A DNA stretch of 5,683 nt, from IMG/VR virus record IMGVR_UViG_3300045988_020466, positions 1 through 5,683 of that record; one strand, 5' to 3'. Both the position numbers and the translations under genes were made by a program. The notes beneath the pieces were generated by a model. The model did no database searches and was not told the DNA's origin. It worked only from the letters and a program-made list of their open reading frames with translations. How positions within the stretch are numbered: position 1 is the first letter of the stretch; the number at the start of each line of letters is the position of its first letter. Below are positions 1 to 5,683 of this stretch, in pieces. The stretch comes from a virus.

Positions 1-55
1 GCGACTTCTACTTCTTCTTCATCCCGTCGCGTCTGCTCTGGGAACACTTCGAAAA
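1..55. repeat. Terminal redundancy: 1..55 is identical to 5629..5683, so the window is a circular genome of 5628 nt opened inside the VP1 gene
   Basis: Exact 55-nt match (gcgacttctacttcttcttcatcccgtcgcgtctgctctgggaacacttcgaaaa) at both window ends. The reading frame is continuous across the junction, since 5628 is a multiple of 3. Confidence 0.9.
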
Positions 56-2737: not shown

Positions 2738-3847
2738 ATGTCATGTACAAGACCGCTCGTCAGAATACCGACAAAAGATGGTGATTACCGCGTAGTAAGC
2801 CTAAAAGGATACTTGAGTCACAGCGGTAAAAACCTCGAAATAGTCGCAGATAAAGAGCGTCAGAACCTGAACGAGAAAAAAATCAAAGAGCTGATAAGGG
2901 ACCAGGAAGCGCAGCTGCTACCGTGCGGACAATGTCCGGGATGCAAAATGGCAGCAGCATCCAGCTGGGCGAACAGAATGGAGCTAGAGCTTCCGTATCA
3001 TCAGAATGCGTGGTTTATCACGTTTACATACGATGACGAGAACGTGCCATACCGAATGACATGGGACGAAGGAACAGGCGAAATGCTGGTAGAAAATTAC
3101 AGTCTCCGCTACGAAGACATGCAGAAATTCTGGAAACGCCTCAGAAGGTACATGGAGTATCACAAGATAAACAACGGAAAACTGATGTACTTCCAGTGTG
3201 GTGAATATGGTGGAAAAACACACAGACCACATTATCATGCGATCGTGTACGACATACCATTCACCAAAGAAGACCTAAAGGTCTACAAAAAGAAAAACGG
3301 CGCTGTATATTACAACGTCGATTGGTTTACCGAACTATGGGGCATGGGCCATGTGGTCATCGCAGCAGCAGAGTGGAAAGCGATGGCATACACAGCAAGA
3401 TACACCACGAAAAAGGTCTATGGAAAGGAAGGAAAAGAATTTTACAAAGAGCTGGGAATTTTACCTGAGAAGTGCAGCATGAGCAAAAGACCAGCGATTG
3501 GAGCAAAATACTTCGAAGAACATAGCGAAGAAATCTATGCAAAAGACAAAATCCAGCTGAAGAACGGAAAAGTTTGCAAACCGCCAAGGTATTTTGATAA
3601 GCTATACGATGCACAGTGTCTGAGAAAACCACTCACAGACAAAGAGGTAGAAGACATTGAGCTGACAATAGAAAAAGCCGAGTCCGATGAGCTCAAAGCG
3701 ATAAAGAGAAAACGTCGCAAGTTAGCAAACGACGCACTCTTCGCCAAGCTCAAGCAGAACAACGGCTTAACCATGCAAGAGTATTATAACAAAGAGGAAC
3801 AGAAAATACAAGACAGGTTCAGAAAACTCATCCGGGAAGAAATCTAA
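2738..3847 (+). CDS. VP4: Replication initiator protein VP4 (HUH rolling-circle endonuclease, phiX174 gpA-like), 369 aa
   Basis: Motif I FITFTYDD, motif II HRPHYHAIVYDIPF (HUH), and motif III AYTARYTTKKVYG (two catalytic Tyr spaced as in phiX174 gpA YVAKYVNKK) are present. There is an N-terminal MSCTRPL and a CGQCPGC zinc-ribbon-like motif. All of this is typical of gokushovirus VP4. Confidence 0.88.
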   Translation: MSCTRPLVRIPTKDGDYRVVSLKGYLSHSGKNLEIVADKERQNLNEKKIKELIRDQEAQLLPCGQCPGCKMAAASSWANRMELELPYHQNAWFITFTYDDENVPYRMTWDEGTGEMLVENYSLRYEDMQKFWKRLRRYMEYHKINNGKLMYFQCGEYGGKTHRPHYHAIVYDIPFTKEDLKVYKKKNGAVYYNVDWFTELWGMGHVVIAAAEWKAMAYTARYTTKKVYGKEGKEFYKELGILPEKCSMSKRPAIGAKYFEEHSEEIYAKDKIQLKNGKVCKPPRYFDKLYDAQCLRKPLTDKEVEDIELTIEKAESDELKAIKRKRRKLANDALFAKLKQNNGLTMQEYYNKEEQKIQDRFRKLIREEI

Positions 3848-3953: not shown

Positions 3954-3982
3954 TTGACAAGTGTATAATTTAGGTGTATAAT
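3954..3982 (+). promoter_or_regulatory. Perfect-consensus sigma70 promoter P2: TTGACA (3954-3959), 17-nt spacer, TATAAT (3977-3982)
   Basis: Both hexamers match consensus exactly with optimal 17-bp spacing. It lies 28 nt upstream of ATG 4010. It contains tandem GTGTATAAT repeats. Confidence 0.7.
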
Positions 3983-4009
3983 AAAGGTGTAGAAAGGACG
4001 GTGCTTAAA

Positions 4010-4192
4010 ATGACCGAAATCGAAAAAATCAAAAAGAGCATCCAGAACCAGATAGATCAACAGGAAAGAAACTACTACAAAGACCTTAAGAGCAAAGCAA
4101 AGCACACAGATGGTACAGAGATGTACAAAGTAGACAGCCACAAAATCGAAGCGCTGGAAGTAGCACTGAGAATAATCGAAATGTATGAATAA
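4010..4192 (+). CDS. Hypothetical 60-aa highly charged, helical protein (MTEIEKIKKSIQNQIDQQERNYYKDLKSKAKHTDGTEMYKVDSHKIEALEVALRIIEMYE)
   Basis: ATG 4010 lies downstream of the predicted P2 start site, with AAAGGA 11 nt upstream. The GTG at 3974 given in the ORF track lies inside the -10 element and is unlikely to be the start. The ORF is flanked by its own promoter and terminator. I do not recognise a family. Confidence 0.55.
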   Translation: MTEIEKIKKSIQNQIDQQERNYYKDLKSKAKHTDGTEMYKVDSHKIEALEVALRIIEMYE

Positions 4193-4195
4193 ACC

Positions 4196-4242
4196 AAAAA
4201 ACGTGAGGTTGACGAAAATCAGCCTTGCGTTTTTTTTTTTTT
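4196..4242 (+). terminator. Rho-independent terminator, a hairpin flanked by an A-tract and a 13-T tract, which could also act bidirectionally
   Basis: The structure is aaaaaacg-tga-GGTTGA-cgaaaa-TCAGCC-ttg-cgtttttttttttttt. The stem is interrupted, with 13 consecutive T at 4230-4242. It lies immediately after the stop of the 60-aa ORF. Confidence 0.6.
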
Positions 4243-4250
4243 GGTAAAAT
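4242..4250 (+). promoter_or_regulatory. Candidate extended -10 promoter (TGgTAAAAT) for the late gene cluster
   Basis: It matches the TGnTAnAAT pattern. No good -35 is present: TTGCGT lies 14 nt upstream, which is suboptimal. It sits upstream of the VP8-like / VP5 / VP3 / VP1 cluster. Confidence 0.3.
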
Positions 4251-4353: not shown

Positions 4354-4458
4354 ATGATCACTTTAAAAGACGTGAAGGGTATCTTCAACCAGCTGCGCAA
4401 GATTTTGGCCATGCTGGATAAGATTTACCACGCACTCAACCTGGATAAGGAGGAATAA
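4354..4458 (+). CDS. Hypothetical 34-aa amphipathic helical peptide (MITLKDVKGIFNQLRKILAMLDKIYHALNLDKEE)
   Basis: Strong RBS GAAGGGAGG lies 7 nt upstream of ATG 4354. The stop is 1 nt before the next gene's ATG. It is a small ORF of uncertain reality. Confidence 0.4.
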   Translation: MITLKDVKGIFNQLRKILAMLDKIYHALNLDKEE

Positions 4459-4459
4459 T

Positions 4460-4579
4460 ATGGCACATCGTATGCCGGTCAACCCGAAAAAGGACAAGCG
4501 GGTGTTTACCAACACCGCGAAGAAAACCAAGAAGATCAACGTCAACCCGAAGCCGTCGAGAGGAGGCATCAGGCTGTGA
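4460..4579 (+). CDS. VP8: Small basic DNA-binding protein (gokushovirus ORF8/VP8-like, phiX174 J analogue), 39 aa
   Basis: RBS AAGGAGG at 4448-4454 lies 5 nt before ATG 4460. The product MAHRMPVNPKKDKRVFTNTAKKTKKINVNPKPSRGGIRL is very K/R-rich and ends in RGGIRL. This resembles the C-terminal RGGIRF of the chlamydiaphage ORF8 protein, as I recall it. Confidence 0.6.
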   Translation: MAHRMPVNPKKDKRVFTNTAKKTKKINVNPKPSRGGIRL

Positions 4580-4668
4580 ACGAAGTACAGCTTATCATCA
4601 AGGTAATAACGCTCAGTCTGCTCATCGCAGATCTGTACATGATCGTCAAAATGATTCGGAGGAAATAA
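4576..4668 (+). CDS. 30-aa single-pass transmembrane peptide (MNEVQLIIKVITLSLLIADLYMIVKMIRRK), a candidate lysis or membrane peptide
   Basis: The GTG start overlaps the TGA stop of the upstream gene (ctGTGA). The RBS GAGAGGAGG (4558-4566) lies 9 nt upstream. The product has a roughly 22-residue hydrophobic core and a basic C-terminal tail (RRK). Its stop is 2 nt before the VP5 ATG. Confidence 0.4.
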   Translation: MNEVQLIIKVITLSLLIADLYMIVKMIRRK

Positions 4669-4670
4669 AG

Positions 4671-4934
4671 ATGGAATTCCAGATATACGCAATCAAGGAC
4701 GAACTTGCCGGGACCTTCGGCAATCTGATGGTGGTCAACGAAAAGGTGGCCGATCGAACAATGAAGTGGATGGCCCAGGAGATGGAGAAGGCCGACTGCG
4801 AAGATAAGCGGGTCTATCTGATGGGCAGCTACGACAACGAGACCGGCCTGATCAGGCCGGAGCAGATGCCGCGTCTGAGCTACAATCTCGAGTTGATGAA
4901 AAAGGAGCAGACGAATGGGAGTCAGAATCTTTAA
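4671..4934 (+). CDS. VP5: VP5-like protein (gokushovirus ORF5; ssDNA synthesis / phiX174 C analogue), 87 aa
   Basis: RBS GGAGG lies 7 nt before ATG 4671. The N-terminal pattern MEFQIYAIKDELAGTFGNLMVVNEKVADRTMKW...EDKRVYLMGSYDNETGLI follows the conserved VP5 signature (IY..KD..a..F..p......A.R.f ... ED..ly.lG.fD.eTG.i). It lies just upstream of VP3, as expected. Confidence 0.6.
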   Translation: MEFQIYAIKDELAGTFGNLMVVNEKVADRTMKWMAQEMEKADCEDKRVYLMGSYDNETGLIRPEQMPRLSYNLELMKKEQTNGSQNL

Positions 4935-5412
4935 GCCCTACGAGGACGAAAAACCGGTGGCACTGCCGAACGAACCGGGAAACCGGTTTGAGCCGGAGTA
5001 CAAGGAGCGGTATGATGACCGCGGACAGCCGTACCTTGAAAAGGTGGGCGAGGTGGACACCTACGAGAAAATCCAGAGCTACAAGGACGAGTGTGACGTT
5101 ATGGCTATCCTGAGCCGATACGCTGCCGGAGACGAGAGCGTCCTGGCAAAACCGGGGTGGTACATCGACACCAGCAAGCTGCCGAAGACCTATACCGAAT
5201 ACATGAACCTGATGAACGAGAAGCGGGAAGAGTTTAACCAACTGCCGCTCAGTATTCGCCAGGCATTCGGCATGAACTTCGAAAACTGGATGGCAACAGC
5301 CGGTGAACAGGAGTGGCTGGACAAAATGGGCATCAAAATTCAGCAGAATGCACAAGAAAAGGTCGATGCTGCCATCGAAGATGTTGTGCAGAAAGGAGAA
5401 AATAAAGAATGA
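4915..5412 (+). CDS. VP3: Internal scaffolding protein VP3 (165 aa)
   Basis: RBS AAAGGAG lies 7 nt before ATG 4915. It overlaps the VP5 3' end by 20 nt in another frame. Its stop overlaps the VP1 start (ATGA at 5409-5412). The product is acidic, with EKIQSYKDECDVMAILSRYAAGD and LPLSIRQAF regions like gokushovirus VP3. It sits directly before VP1. Confidence 0.65.
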   Translation: MGVRIFKPYEDEKPVALPNEPGNRFEPEYKERYDDRGQPYLEKVGEVDTYEKIQSYKDECDVMAILSRYAAGDESVLAKPGWYIDTSKLPKTYTEYMNLMNEKREEFNQLPLSIRQAFGMNFENWMATAGEQEWLDKMGIKIQQNAQEKVDAAIEDVVQKGENKE

Positions 5413-5683
5413 ACCGCAATGCTGAACAGCACTACTCTCAAGTTCCTCATGCAAACGTACCGCGAGCGAGATTCAAGCGAGACTACTCGCTGTTGACGAC
5501 CATGAACGAAGGAGACCTCGTCCCGATCTACTGTGATGAGGTGTTGCCGGCCGACACGGCAAAGATCAACCTGAACGCTCTGATGCGCATGAGCACACCG
5601 CTGTATCCGGTTATGGATAACTGTTACTGCGACTTCTACTTCTTCTTCATCCCGTCGCGTCTGCTCTGGGAACACTTCGAAAA
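5409..5683 (+). CDS. VP1: Major capsid protein VP1, N-terminal part, continuing at window position 1 through the circular junction (5629..5683 duplicates 1..55)
   Basis: ATG 5409 is preceded by an in-frame TAA at 5403-5405 and by RBS AAAGGAG 10 nt upstream. The translation MNRNAEQHYSQVPHANVPRARFKRDYSLL... is the canonical gokushovirus VP1 N-terminus, and the frame is continuous with 3..1370. Confidence 0.85.
   Translation, partial: MNRNAEQHYSQVPHANVPRARFKRDYSLLTTMNEGDLVPIYCDEVLPADTAKINLNALMRMSTPLYPVMDNCYCDFYFFFIPSRLLWEHFE

What the first reader, a model, noticed from the sequence alone, without database searches (positions are those of the whole stretch)
4558..4668. 30-aa transmembrane peptide translationally coupled to the VP8-like gene: candidate single-gene lysis protein
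Gokushoviruses lack a recognisable phiX174 E homologue, and their lysis mechanism is largely unknown. Here a GTG-initiated ORF overlaps the preceding stop (GTGA) and has a strong SD GAGAGGAGG. It encodes MNEVQLIIKVITLSLLIADLYMIVKMIRRK, a hydrophobic helix of about 22 residues with a cationic C-terminus. That is the general shape of protein-antibiotic amurins and small holin-like peptides. Its stop lies 2 nt before VP5, so it is embedded in the late operon.
Basis: inference. Interest (0 to 1): 0.6.

Follow-up and report, generated by a model that had tools for sequence, protein, structure and literature searches.

The report
Hidden accessory membrane mini-gene in gokushovirus
A real but never-annotated 30-residue membrane-helix gene sits in an insertion hotspot of a gut gokushovirus; many close relatives lack it, so it is an optional extra (possibly a lysis helper) and not the missing universal lysis gene of these viruses.

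Summary
A GTG-started 30-codon ORF (4576-4668) overlaps the VP8 stop (GTGA), has an SD (4558-4566) and ends 2 nt before VP5. The evidence says it is a real gene:
- The SD is written into VP8's Arg-Gly-Gly codons by synonymous choice, and only in genomes where an ORF starts at that overlap.
- The ORF varies about 4 times less than four-fold degenerate sites of its neighbours.
- A related type shows a frame-specific excess of synonymous change.
- Hydrophobicity survives 40% DNA divergence.
- It is the only strongly hydrophobic short ORF on the coding strand.

It is not conserved, however. The VP8|VP5 junction is an insertion hotspot. It holds this peptide (type 1), a second small hydrophobic peptide family (types 2a and 2b, 24-27 aa), ribbon-helix-helix genes, other inserts, or nothing (12 nt). 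Four of ten sampled genomes with an identical VP8 are empty, and one carrier has lost its start codon. It has no homologues outside this virus group.

Verdict: an accessory single-helix membrane peptide. It meets the published criteria for a single-gene-lysis candidate, but it cannot be the essential or general gokushovirus lysis gene. Its function (lysis trigger or timer, or superinfection exclusion) is untested.

The parts
4460..4579 (+). VP8-like (J-like) 39-aa basic protein. Its stop TGA (4577-4579) overlaps the start of the mini-gene.
   Evidence: phrog_10695, E 1.9e-9. Homologues are annotated 'DNA binding protein' in Dulem viruses. 79-100% identical across relatives.
4558..4566 (+). Shine-Dalgarno GAGAGGAGG serving the mini-gene, built from synonymous codons for S-R-G-G of VP8.
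   Evidence: Anti-SD duplex is -11 to -12 kcal/mol in type-1 carriers and in 16 of 19 RHH-coupled junctions. It is -4.8 to -7.9 in 13 empty and 5 type-2 junctions, although the peptide SRGGIRL is unchanged.
4576..4668 (+). Type-1 mini-gene: 30-aa single-helix membrane peptide MNEVQLIIKVITLSLLIADLYMIVKMIRRK (GTG start, TAA stop).
   Evidence: Eight alleles are listed and a ninth (L109). The reading frame is open in all of them; L109 has lost the stop codon and reads on to 41 aa.
4580..4670 (+). The 91-nt insert, relative to relatives whose VP8 stop and VP5 ATG are 12-15 nt apart.
   Evidence: Alignment A2; slot census.
4658..4663 (+). Shine-Dalgarno GGAGGA of VP5, lying inside the codons for the peptide's R28-R29-K30 tail.
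   Evidence: Sequence. The same arrangement is seen in type 2a (TGGAGGAAG) and type 2b (AAAAGGAGA).
4671..4934 (+). VP5 (Phage_ORF5), starting 2 nt after the mini-gene's stop.
   Evidence: Pfam PF20577, 33 bits against a cutoff of 27; phrog_1670.
4354..4458 (+). Conserved 34-aa helical ORF, the first ORF after the terminator-like hairpin at 4196-4235. No promoter-like site was detected in front of it.
   Evidence: Called as a 34-aa gene in nearly all relatives. No + strand promoter or terminator pattern between 4354 and 5000.

Best explanation
Window 4576-4668 is a genuine, translated, accessory mini-gene encoding a 30-residue peptide that is essentially one membrane-spanning helix.

Shown:
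- It occupies a 91-nt insert at the VP8|VP5 junction, which is an insertion hotspot in this group of gut gokushoviruses.
- It is present in some genomes and absent in near-identical others.
- It is under sequence constraint.
- It has a dedicated SD created by synonymous codon choice inside VP8.

Inferred mechanism:
1. Ribosomes finishing VP8 reinitiate at the GTG of GTGA, so the peptide is made together with the virion proteins.
2. The helix inserts into the cytoplasmic membrane with its 2-3-residue acidic N-terminus outside and its K/RRK tail inside.
3. It acts at the membrane as an optional lysis effector or timer. It would either collapse membrane potential (like small pore-forming peptides and pinholins) or block a membrane step of wall-precursor supply (like protein antibiotics). 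Either way, release would be advanced relative to relatives that lack it.

It is not the general or essential lysis gene of gokushoviruses.
For: Real gene:
- SD covariation with an invariant VP8 peptide.
- ORF body varies at 11% of sites against 45% of four-fold sites in VP8+VP5 of the same genomes (p = 2.6e-5). Type 2a shows 8% against 43% (p = 1.2e-5).
- Type 2a has 6 synonymous to 3 non-synonymous changes in frame 0 only (p = 0.003). Combined types give 9:8 (p = 0.009).
- Of the 15 variable sites counted, 1 is at codon position 2. Adding L109's Y21L gives about 2 of 17, which is the input behind P = 0.044.
- Types 2a and 2b are homologous (p < 0.0002) and 40% diverged in DNA, yet still hydrophobic. 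Neutral simulation reaches the observed value in 0.5% of runs.
- Single helix over residues 2-29, pLDDT 96.
- It is the only TM-grade short ORF on the coding strand.
- No nucleic-acid structure signal.

Accessory.

Operon context: no promoter or terminator pattern between the 34-aa ORF and VP3.

Lysis reading:
- Meets the sgl-candidate criteria.
- Putative lysis genes in microviruses (M15 peptidases) are also patchy. They are present in L025 and L045 here and patchy in the literature.
- There is no other lysis candidate in the window.
Against: - No functional data exist.
- In the one systematic screen, only about 10% of TMD+SD ORFs from small phages were toxic or lytic, and 178 of 293 candidates showed no effect.
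- Relatives without the insert, which also have no other TM ORF, must release progeny anyway.
- L014 has ATA in place of ATG.
- Type 1 alone shows no synonymous excess (3:5, p = 0.27).
- Low diversity of the insert could partly reflect recent spread by recombination rather than purifying selection; the trees are mosaic.
- The helix is only marginally hydrophobic on a biological scale.
- There is no partner endolysin.
- The host is unknown.
Confidence: 0.4

Rival explanations
1. Superinfection-exclusion or other conflict peptide. The membrane helix would block entry or DNA piloting by competing microviruses, or counter a membrane-bound host defence. It would be kept as a polymorphic, fast-diversifying accessory gene.
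For: - Presence/absence polymorphism among near-identical genomes.
- Several unrelated or barely related peptide types in one slot.
- Mosaic distribution implying exchange by recombination.
- The peptide diverges far faster between types than the flanks do.
- Microviruses are reported to use hypervariable regions for superinfection exclusion. This rests on the title of Kirchberger et al. 2021 as cited in PMC9239249; the details are from memory because the paper is not held.
Against: - The known microviral exclusion determinant lies in the pilot protein VP2, not in a small ORF (from memory).
- No match to any PADLOC defence model.
- No sign of lysogeny in this genome.
- The gene sits in the structural operon.
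Confidence: 0.25
2. One reading: it is the virus's single-gene lysis protein, an amurin that inhibits a lipid II pathway enzyme as phiX174 E does, and is required for release.
For: - TM helix with SD in a small lytic phage that lacks any other lysis candidate.
- The criteria of PMC7693330 are met.
- Sgl genes in ssRNA phages are likewise non-homologous and differently placed among close relatives.
Against: - Empty-slot genomes with identical VP8 and 93-95% identical VP5 exist in numbers and have no substitute TM ORF.
- L014 has lost its start codon.
- Gokushovirus EC6098 lyses E. coli with six core genes.
- No similarity to E, no proline in the helix, and a 5-residue tail instead of a roughly 55-residue domain.
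Confidence: 0.12
3. Another accessory membrane role unrelated to lysis or exclusion. One example would be a phiX174 K-like non-essential small hydrophobic protein that adjusts burst size or tethers replication or assembly to the membrane.
For: - It is dispensable yet constrained.
- It is co-expressed with structural proteins.
- Precedent of protein K in phiX174 (from memory).
Against: - No homology to K or to any other family.
- At 24-30 residues there is almost nothing outside the membrane to interact with.
Confidence: 0.12
4. Not a functional peptide: the 91 nt is junk left by illegitimate recombination at a hotspot, or a cis-acting spacer, and the ORF is incidental.
For: - The hotspot also holds a non-coding insert: L104 carries a copy of the VP3-end/VP1 RBS region.
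- Type 1 alone has no synonymous excess.
- No gene caller predicts the 30-aa form.
Against: - SD covariation.
- Strong constraint relative to four-fold sites.
- Frame-specific synonymous excess in type 2a.
- Maintained hydrophobicity.
- The reading frame is open in every allele; the only lesions are L014's ATG to ATA and L109's stop loss.
- No folding or Rfam signal.
- VP5 has an equally good SD without the insert.
Confidence: 0.08

Closest known systems
Single-gene lysis (Sgl) candidates of ssRNA phages (Chamakura et al. 2020, PMC7693330)
   Same: - Tiny ORF with an SD and one predicted TM helix, in a minimal lytic phage without an endolysin.
- No sequence family.
- Differs or is absent between close relatives.
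- Routinely missed by annotation.
   Different: - It lies in its own insert rather than overprinted on a core gene.
- The virus is ssDNA.
- It is demonstrably dispensable at population level.
- At 24-30 aa it is at or below the 25-codon floor used in that screen.
- No lytic phenotype has been tested.
phiX174 protein E (MraY-inhibiting protein antibiotic)
   Same: - Same virus family (Microviridae).
- An N-terminal TM helix is the active part.
- Basic residues follow the helix.
   Different: - No homology.
- E is 91 aa, overprinted in gene D, needs Pro21, and its helix is strongly hydrophobic (about -3.4 against +1.9 kcal/mol on the same crude scale; E data from memory).
- E is essential for lysis, whereas this gene is optional.
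Small depolarising membrane peptides (type I toxins such as TisB; pinholins)
   Same: - About 30 aa, one helix with charged residues inside the hydrophobic span (K9, D19, K25).
- Marginal insertion energy similar to TisB (+2.0 against +1.9; TisB sequence from memory).
- Plausible threshold-type action.
   Different: - No antisense RNA or antitoxin context.
- Phage structural-operon location.
- Pinholins are about 70 aa with two TMDs and work with a SAR endolysin, and none is present here.
- Types 2a and 2b lack intramembrane charges.
Accessory M15 peptidase genes of microviruses (putative endolysins)
   Same: - Optional, patchily distributed genes in non-Bullavirinae microviruses that are presumed to be lysis-related.
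- Two relatives here (L025, L045) carry one (literature).
   Different: - That is an enzyme of about 140 aa with clear Pfam membership, acquired horizontally from bacteria or other phages.
- The peptide here has no homologues anywhere and no catalytic potential.
Ribbon-helix-helix genes in the same VP8|VP5 slot of sister clades
   Same: - Same position.
- Same GTGA/ATGA coupling to the VP8 stop.
- Same SD written into VP8's RGG codons.
   Different: - These are 60-74-aa soluble DNA-binding-type proteins (RHH_1 hit).
- They have no hydrophobic segment and no detectable relation to the peptide.

Membership tests
Sgl candidate (operational criteria of PMC7693330) | ORF of at least 25 codons with an ATG, GTG or TTG start | tested here: met
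   30 codons, GTG start. Types 2a and 2b have 27 and 24 codons.
Sgl candidate (operational criteria of PMC7693330) | Legitimate Shine-Dalgarno | tested here: met
   GAGAGGAGG lies 9 nt upstream. Anti-SD duplex is -12 kcal/mol and covaries with presence of a coupled ORF.
Sgl candidate (operational criteria of PMC7693330) | Predicted transmembrane domain | tested here: met
   KD19 2.28, and a continuous helix over residues 2-29. Caveats: TMHMM was not available, and a Hessa-type sum is marginal (+1.9).
Sgl / amurin (functional definition) | Expression alone causes host lysis; inhibits a peptidoglycan-precursor step | not testable with these tools
   Needs induction experiments, and the host is unknown.
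Sgl / amurin (functional definition) | Required for progeny release, so retained in all viable relatives or replaced by an equivalent | tested here: not met
   There are 27 empty junctions among 84 examined, and 4 of 10 places among VP8-identical contigs. No other TM ORF exists in those genomes. L014 has lost its start codon.
phiX174 E family | Sequence homology to E | tested here: not met
   No Pfam, PHROG or NCBIfam hit at permissive E-values. An exhaustive phmmer search found only its own allele.
phiX174 E family | Overprinted within the scaffolding gene; conserved proline in the TMD; long basic C-terminal domain | tested here: not met
   It lies in its own 91-nt insert, contains no proline, and has a 5-residue tail. 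The features of E are from established knowledge.
Holin | One or more TMDs with a charged cytoplasmic C-terminus | tested here: met
   One helix and a K25/RRK tail. The tail is partly dictated by VP5's SD.
Holin | Works with a phage endolysin encoded in the same genome | tested here: not met
   No peptidase or lysozyme domain in any window ORF. M15 peptidase is present only in L025 and L045, which lack the peptide.
Type I toxin | Small hydrophobic toxic peptide controlled by an antisense or overlapping RNA | tested here: inconclusive
   The peptide shape fits. No promoter-like site was found that would give an antisense RNA over 4576-4668; the only minus-strand site (4482-4455) points away. 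Toxicity is untested.

The most novel reading that the evidence does not exclude
Gut gokushoviruses carry a gain-and-loss hotspot at the VP8|VP5 junction where RBS-bearing DNA is captured and turned into tiny membrane-helix genes (types 1, 2a and 2b). Under this reading these 24-30-residue peptides would be the first lysis effectors identified in Gokushovirinae and the smallest known phage lysis proteins. They would act as optional accelerators of an otherwise core-gene-driven release, kept polymorphic by selection on lysis timing.
Probability: 0.3. Interest if true: 0.75.

Novelty: new member of a known kind. Interest (0 to 1): 0.5.

Why it matters
How gokushoviruses, among the commonest phages of the human gut, release their progeny is unknown, and their small genomes are annotated with only 4-9 genes. 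This work shows that a constrained, translated mini-gene has been overlooked in every public record of this virus group. It also shows that the gene is an optional cassette at a hotspot that holds other accessory genes too. That gives a cheap, well-defined experiment: synthesise three peptides, and make one nonsense mutant. The experiment bears on lysis timing or phage-phage exclusion in microviruses. If the peptides prove lytic, they would be minimal membrane-active antibacterial scaffolds. The result also corrects the tempting inference that this ORF solves the gokushovirus lysis problem, which it does not.

Tried and rejected
1. Structured DNA or RNA element (origin, terminator, riboswitch). 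Folding z-scores were -0.6 (DNA) and +0.15 (RNA), and Rfam gave no hit. Rejected.
2. Homologues elsewhere. I tried a degenerate motif scan of IMG/VR (0 hits), tblastn against GenBank phages (only KX513873), tblastn against plasmids (none), Pfam, PHROGs, NCBIfam and PADLOC (none), and phmmer against 1.84 billion representatives (only its own stop-loss allele).
3. Remnant of the RHH gene that fills the slot in sister clades. The junction style (SD plus GTGA) is shared. However, VP8's upstream codons (TCG for Ser33, AAG CCG) are of the empty/type-2 lineage, and no significant similarity was found (read from the junction sequences). Not supported.
4. Origin by duplication of another genome segment. 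blastn-short of the inserts against all loci found nothing beyond 11-13-mers. Only L104's different insert is such a copy.
5. Homology of type 1 with type 2. Protein shuffles gave p = 0.33 and 0.58. The DNA local alignment gave p = 0.004 against a mononucleotide shuffle but 0.12 against a codon shuffle. This is left unresolved, although the carriers are sister lineages.
6. Relocated RHH. The 70-aa RHH-like ORF (2379-2591) is present regardless of slot state. Rejected.
7. Host assignment. The VP1 search of GTDB representatives gave at best 62% (partial) and 50% identity, with integrated relatives at about 45% (Phascolarctobacterium, Intestinirhabdus). No usable host.
9. The Kirchberger 2021 PNAS paper on superinfection exclusion is not held.

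Full report
**What the window is.** The 5683-nt window is a complete circular gut gokushovirus. Its first 55 nt repeat at the end, so the true circle is 5628 nt. It is 97.4% identical to Human gut gokushovirus SH-CHD10, KX513873, and is the ENA contig ERZ1745280 NODE_2384. All genes are on the + strand:
- VP1 (wraps the ends)
- VP2, 1383-2309
- an RHH-like 70-aa ORF, 2379-2591
- VP4, 2738-3847
- a 60-aa ORF, 4010-4192
- a 34-aa ORF, 4354-4458
- the VP8-like 39-aa basic protein, 4460-4579
- the ORF in question, 4576-4668
- VP5, 4671-4934
- VP3, 4915-5412

**Observation.** Two refinements apply.
- The hydrophobic span contains K9, D19 and K25. It passes the Kyte-Doolittle criterion (2.28) but is only marginally hydrophobic on a Hessa-type scale (+1.9 kcal/mol). 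That is comparable to TisB and unlike phiX174 E (scale and comparator sequences from memory). AlphaFold2 predicts one helix over residues 2-29 (pLDDT 96).
- The RRK tail is encoded by VP5's own SD (CGGAGGAAA), so it is not free evidence for topology.

The ORF is far beyond chance. Of 1947 coding-strand ORFs of at least 20 aa in 57 related genomes, five reach KD17 >= 1.9, and four of these lie in this slot.

**Comparative picture.** I collected 109 loci from GenBank phages, IMG/VR, metagenomes and exact-protein look-ups, and read the VP8|VP5 junction in 84 of them. The junction is an insertion hotspot with at least six states:

| State | Content | Where seen |
|---|---|---|
| a | Empty, 12-15 nt (TAAAGGAGnAnnAnnATG) | 27 loci |
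| b | Type 1, the window's peptide | 21 loci, 9 alleles |
| c | Type 2a, MVDILQSTAIVLIAAYIIMNEIRNWRK, with its own ATG using what is VP5's RBS in empty genomes | 9 loci |
| d | Type 2b, MVDVIQSIAIMLLSIGVIINAKRR | L058 |
| e | RHH genes of 60-74 aa, coupled by the same GTGA/ATGA overlap | 26 loci of more distant clades; RHH_1 hit |
| f | Others | see below |

The 'other' states are a small helical ORF in Dulem viruses (resembling the window's own 34-aa ORF), a hydrophilic 26-aa ORF (L045), and a non-coding copy of the VP3-end/VP1 RBS region (L104).

Among ten diverse contigs encoding a 100% identical VP8, three are type 1, three are type 2a and four are empty. The loci counts in the table are biased, because some look-ups used the window's own proteins.

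No public record or gene caller annotates the 30-aa ORF. The only called form is a stop-loss allele of 41 aa.

**Is it a gene?** Five lines say yes.
1. SD covariation. VP8 ends in the invariant peptide SRGGIRL, but its codons pair strongly with the anti-SD only where an ORF starts at the overlap. The values are -11 to -12 kcal/mol in type 1 and in 16 of 19 RHH-coupled junctions. They are -4.8 to -7.9 in 13 empty and 5 type-2 junctions.
2. Constraint. In the same genomes, 45% of four-fold sites of VP8+VP5 vary against 11% of all sites in the type-1 ORF body (p = 2.6e-5). For type 2a the figures are 43% and 8% (p = 1.2e-5).
3. Type 2a shows 6 synonymous to 3 non-synonymous events in the peptide frame only (p = 0.003). 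The pooled count is 9:8 (p = 0.009). Of the 15 variable sites counted, 1 is at codon position 2; adding L109's Y21L gives about 2 of 17, the input behind P = 0.044.
4. Types 2a and 2b are homologous (p < 0.0002) but differ at 25 of 63 nt and 12 of 21 residues, and both remain TM-grade. Random substitution reproduces this in 0.5% of trials.
5. There is no alternative nucleic-acid explanation.

Caveats: type 1 alone has no synonymous excess (3:5), although its replacements are I/V/M/L swaps plus E3K. Low diversity could also partly reflect recent recombinational spread, since flank trees place carriers mosaically. There, type-1 and type-2a carriers are sisters, while L014 and L058 fall elsewhere. 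I put the probability that this is a real expressed peptide at about 0.85-0.9.

**Is it the lysis gene?** The literature confirms that gokushoviruses lack an E homologue, and that only patchy M15 peptidases have been proposed as lysins. The ORF meets the published criteria for an sgl candidate. Against an essential role:
- Empty-slot genomes are numerous, nearly identical elsewhere, and contain no substitute TM ORF.
- L014 has ATG changed to ATA.
- Gokushovirus EC6098 lyses E. coli with six core genes.
- In the systematic ssRNA-phage screen, most TMD ORFs had no phenotype.

Patchiness alone does not exclude a lysis-related role, because the accepted putative lysins of microviruses are equally patchy; here they occur in L025 and L045.

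**Mechanism proposed.** Shown: coupled translation architecture, a single helix, accessory status and constraint. Inferred:
1. The peptide is made with the virion proteins. There is no + strand promoter or terminator pattern between 4354 and 5000.
2. It inserts with its N-terminus out and its C-terminus in.
3. It acts in the membrane as an optional lysis trigger or timer, by depolarisation or by blocking a membrane step of wall synthesis.

Confidence in this functional reading is 0.4. The rivals are superinfection exclusion or another conflict role (0.25), an essential Sgl (0.12), another membrane role such as a K-like burst modulator (0.12), and a non-functional insert (0.08).

**Comparison with the known.** It works most like Sgl candidates of ssRNA phages or like small depolarising peptides. 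It is not a member of the E family or of any curated family. It fails the holin criterion of a partner endolysin. Its family is confined to this virus group.

**Novelty and interest.** It is a new, unannotated member of the known kind 'small phage membrane peptides'. It is notable for its size (24-30 aa), for the SD written into the neighbouring gene, and for the hotspot it sits in. It makes a hypothesis about gokushovirus release or exclusion directly testable, but it does not solve the general lysis question. Interest is 0.5.

Noticed in passing
window 1-55 and 5629-5683: There is a 55-nt terminal direct repeat, the overlap left by assembling a circular genome. The true genome length is 5628 nt, and VP1 (529 aa) reads correctly only after the repeat is removed.
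   Followed up: yes
window 3954-4245: A self-contained mini transcription unit. It has a perfect 12/12 sigma-70 consensus promoter (TTGACA-17-TATAAT, 3954-3982), a 60-aa ORF (4010-4192), then a 17-bp hairpin with a long T run (4196-4245). tblastn finds this ORF in 5 of 7 complete TM-insert genomes and in 0 of 20 empty-slot genomes. Relatives carry different 52-71-aa ORFs here, so this is a second variable slot. The association is probably linkage.
   Followed up: partly
window 4354-4458; L007 4840-4917, L008 4660-4758: A conserved 34-aa helical ORF (MITLKDVKGIFNQLRKILAMLDKIYHALNLDKEE) lies directly upstream of VP8 in all near relatives. In Dulem viruses 202, 205 and 206 a similar ORF (..LKKILEVLDNIYHLI..) lies between VP8 and VP5 instead. 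Its function is unknown.
   Followed up: partly
L005/L006, L026/L027, L032-L044, L046-L055 (VP8|VP5 slot): Sister clades fill the same slot with 60-74-aa ribbon-helix-helix genes of several subfamilies, started by GTG or ATG overlapping the VP8 stop. The window's own RHH-like 70-aa ORF (2379-2591) is a different gene, and it is also found in 17 of the 24 RHH-slot genomes.
   Followed up: partly
L104 (Logan SRR27700152), slot between VP8 and VP5: This genome has a 64-nt insert without a meaningful ORF. Its 3' 36 nt are 89% identical to window 5367-5402 (end of VP3 and the VP1 ribosome-binding site). An RBS-bearing segment has been copied into the hotspot.
   Followed up: partly
L025 3448-3867; L045 42-461: Two relatives carry a Peptidase_M15_3 gene (87 bits, cutoff 23.2) upstream of VP8. 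This is the putative endolysin type described for other microviruses. Neither genome has a small TM ORF that could serve as a holin.
   Followed up: partly
L109 2977-3102 (Logan SRR26257648): A type-1 allele whose stop TAA has become AAA. The ORF runs 32 nt into VP5 and gives a 41-aa product with a hydrophilic tail; it also carries Y21L. It is the only form of the gene that any gene caller has recorded.
   Followed up: yes
L014 (IMGVR_UViG_3300045988_063657) 372-455: This genome has the type-2a insert with its start codon ATG changed to ATA, plus A9T. It is either a decaying copy or a sequencing error, and it argues that the gene is dispensable.
   Followed up: partly
window 4363-4692, minus strand: A 109-aa antisense ORF with hydrophobic stretches spans VP8 and the mini-gene. 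It is the mirror image of Lys-rich coding sequence, and microviruses are not known to use the complementary strand. I did not examine it further.
   Followed up: no
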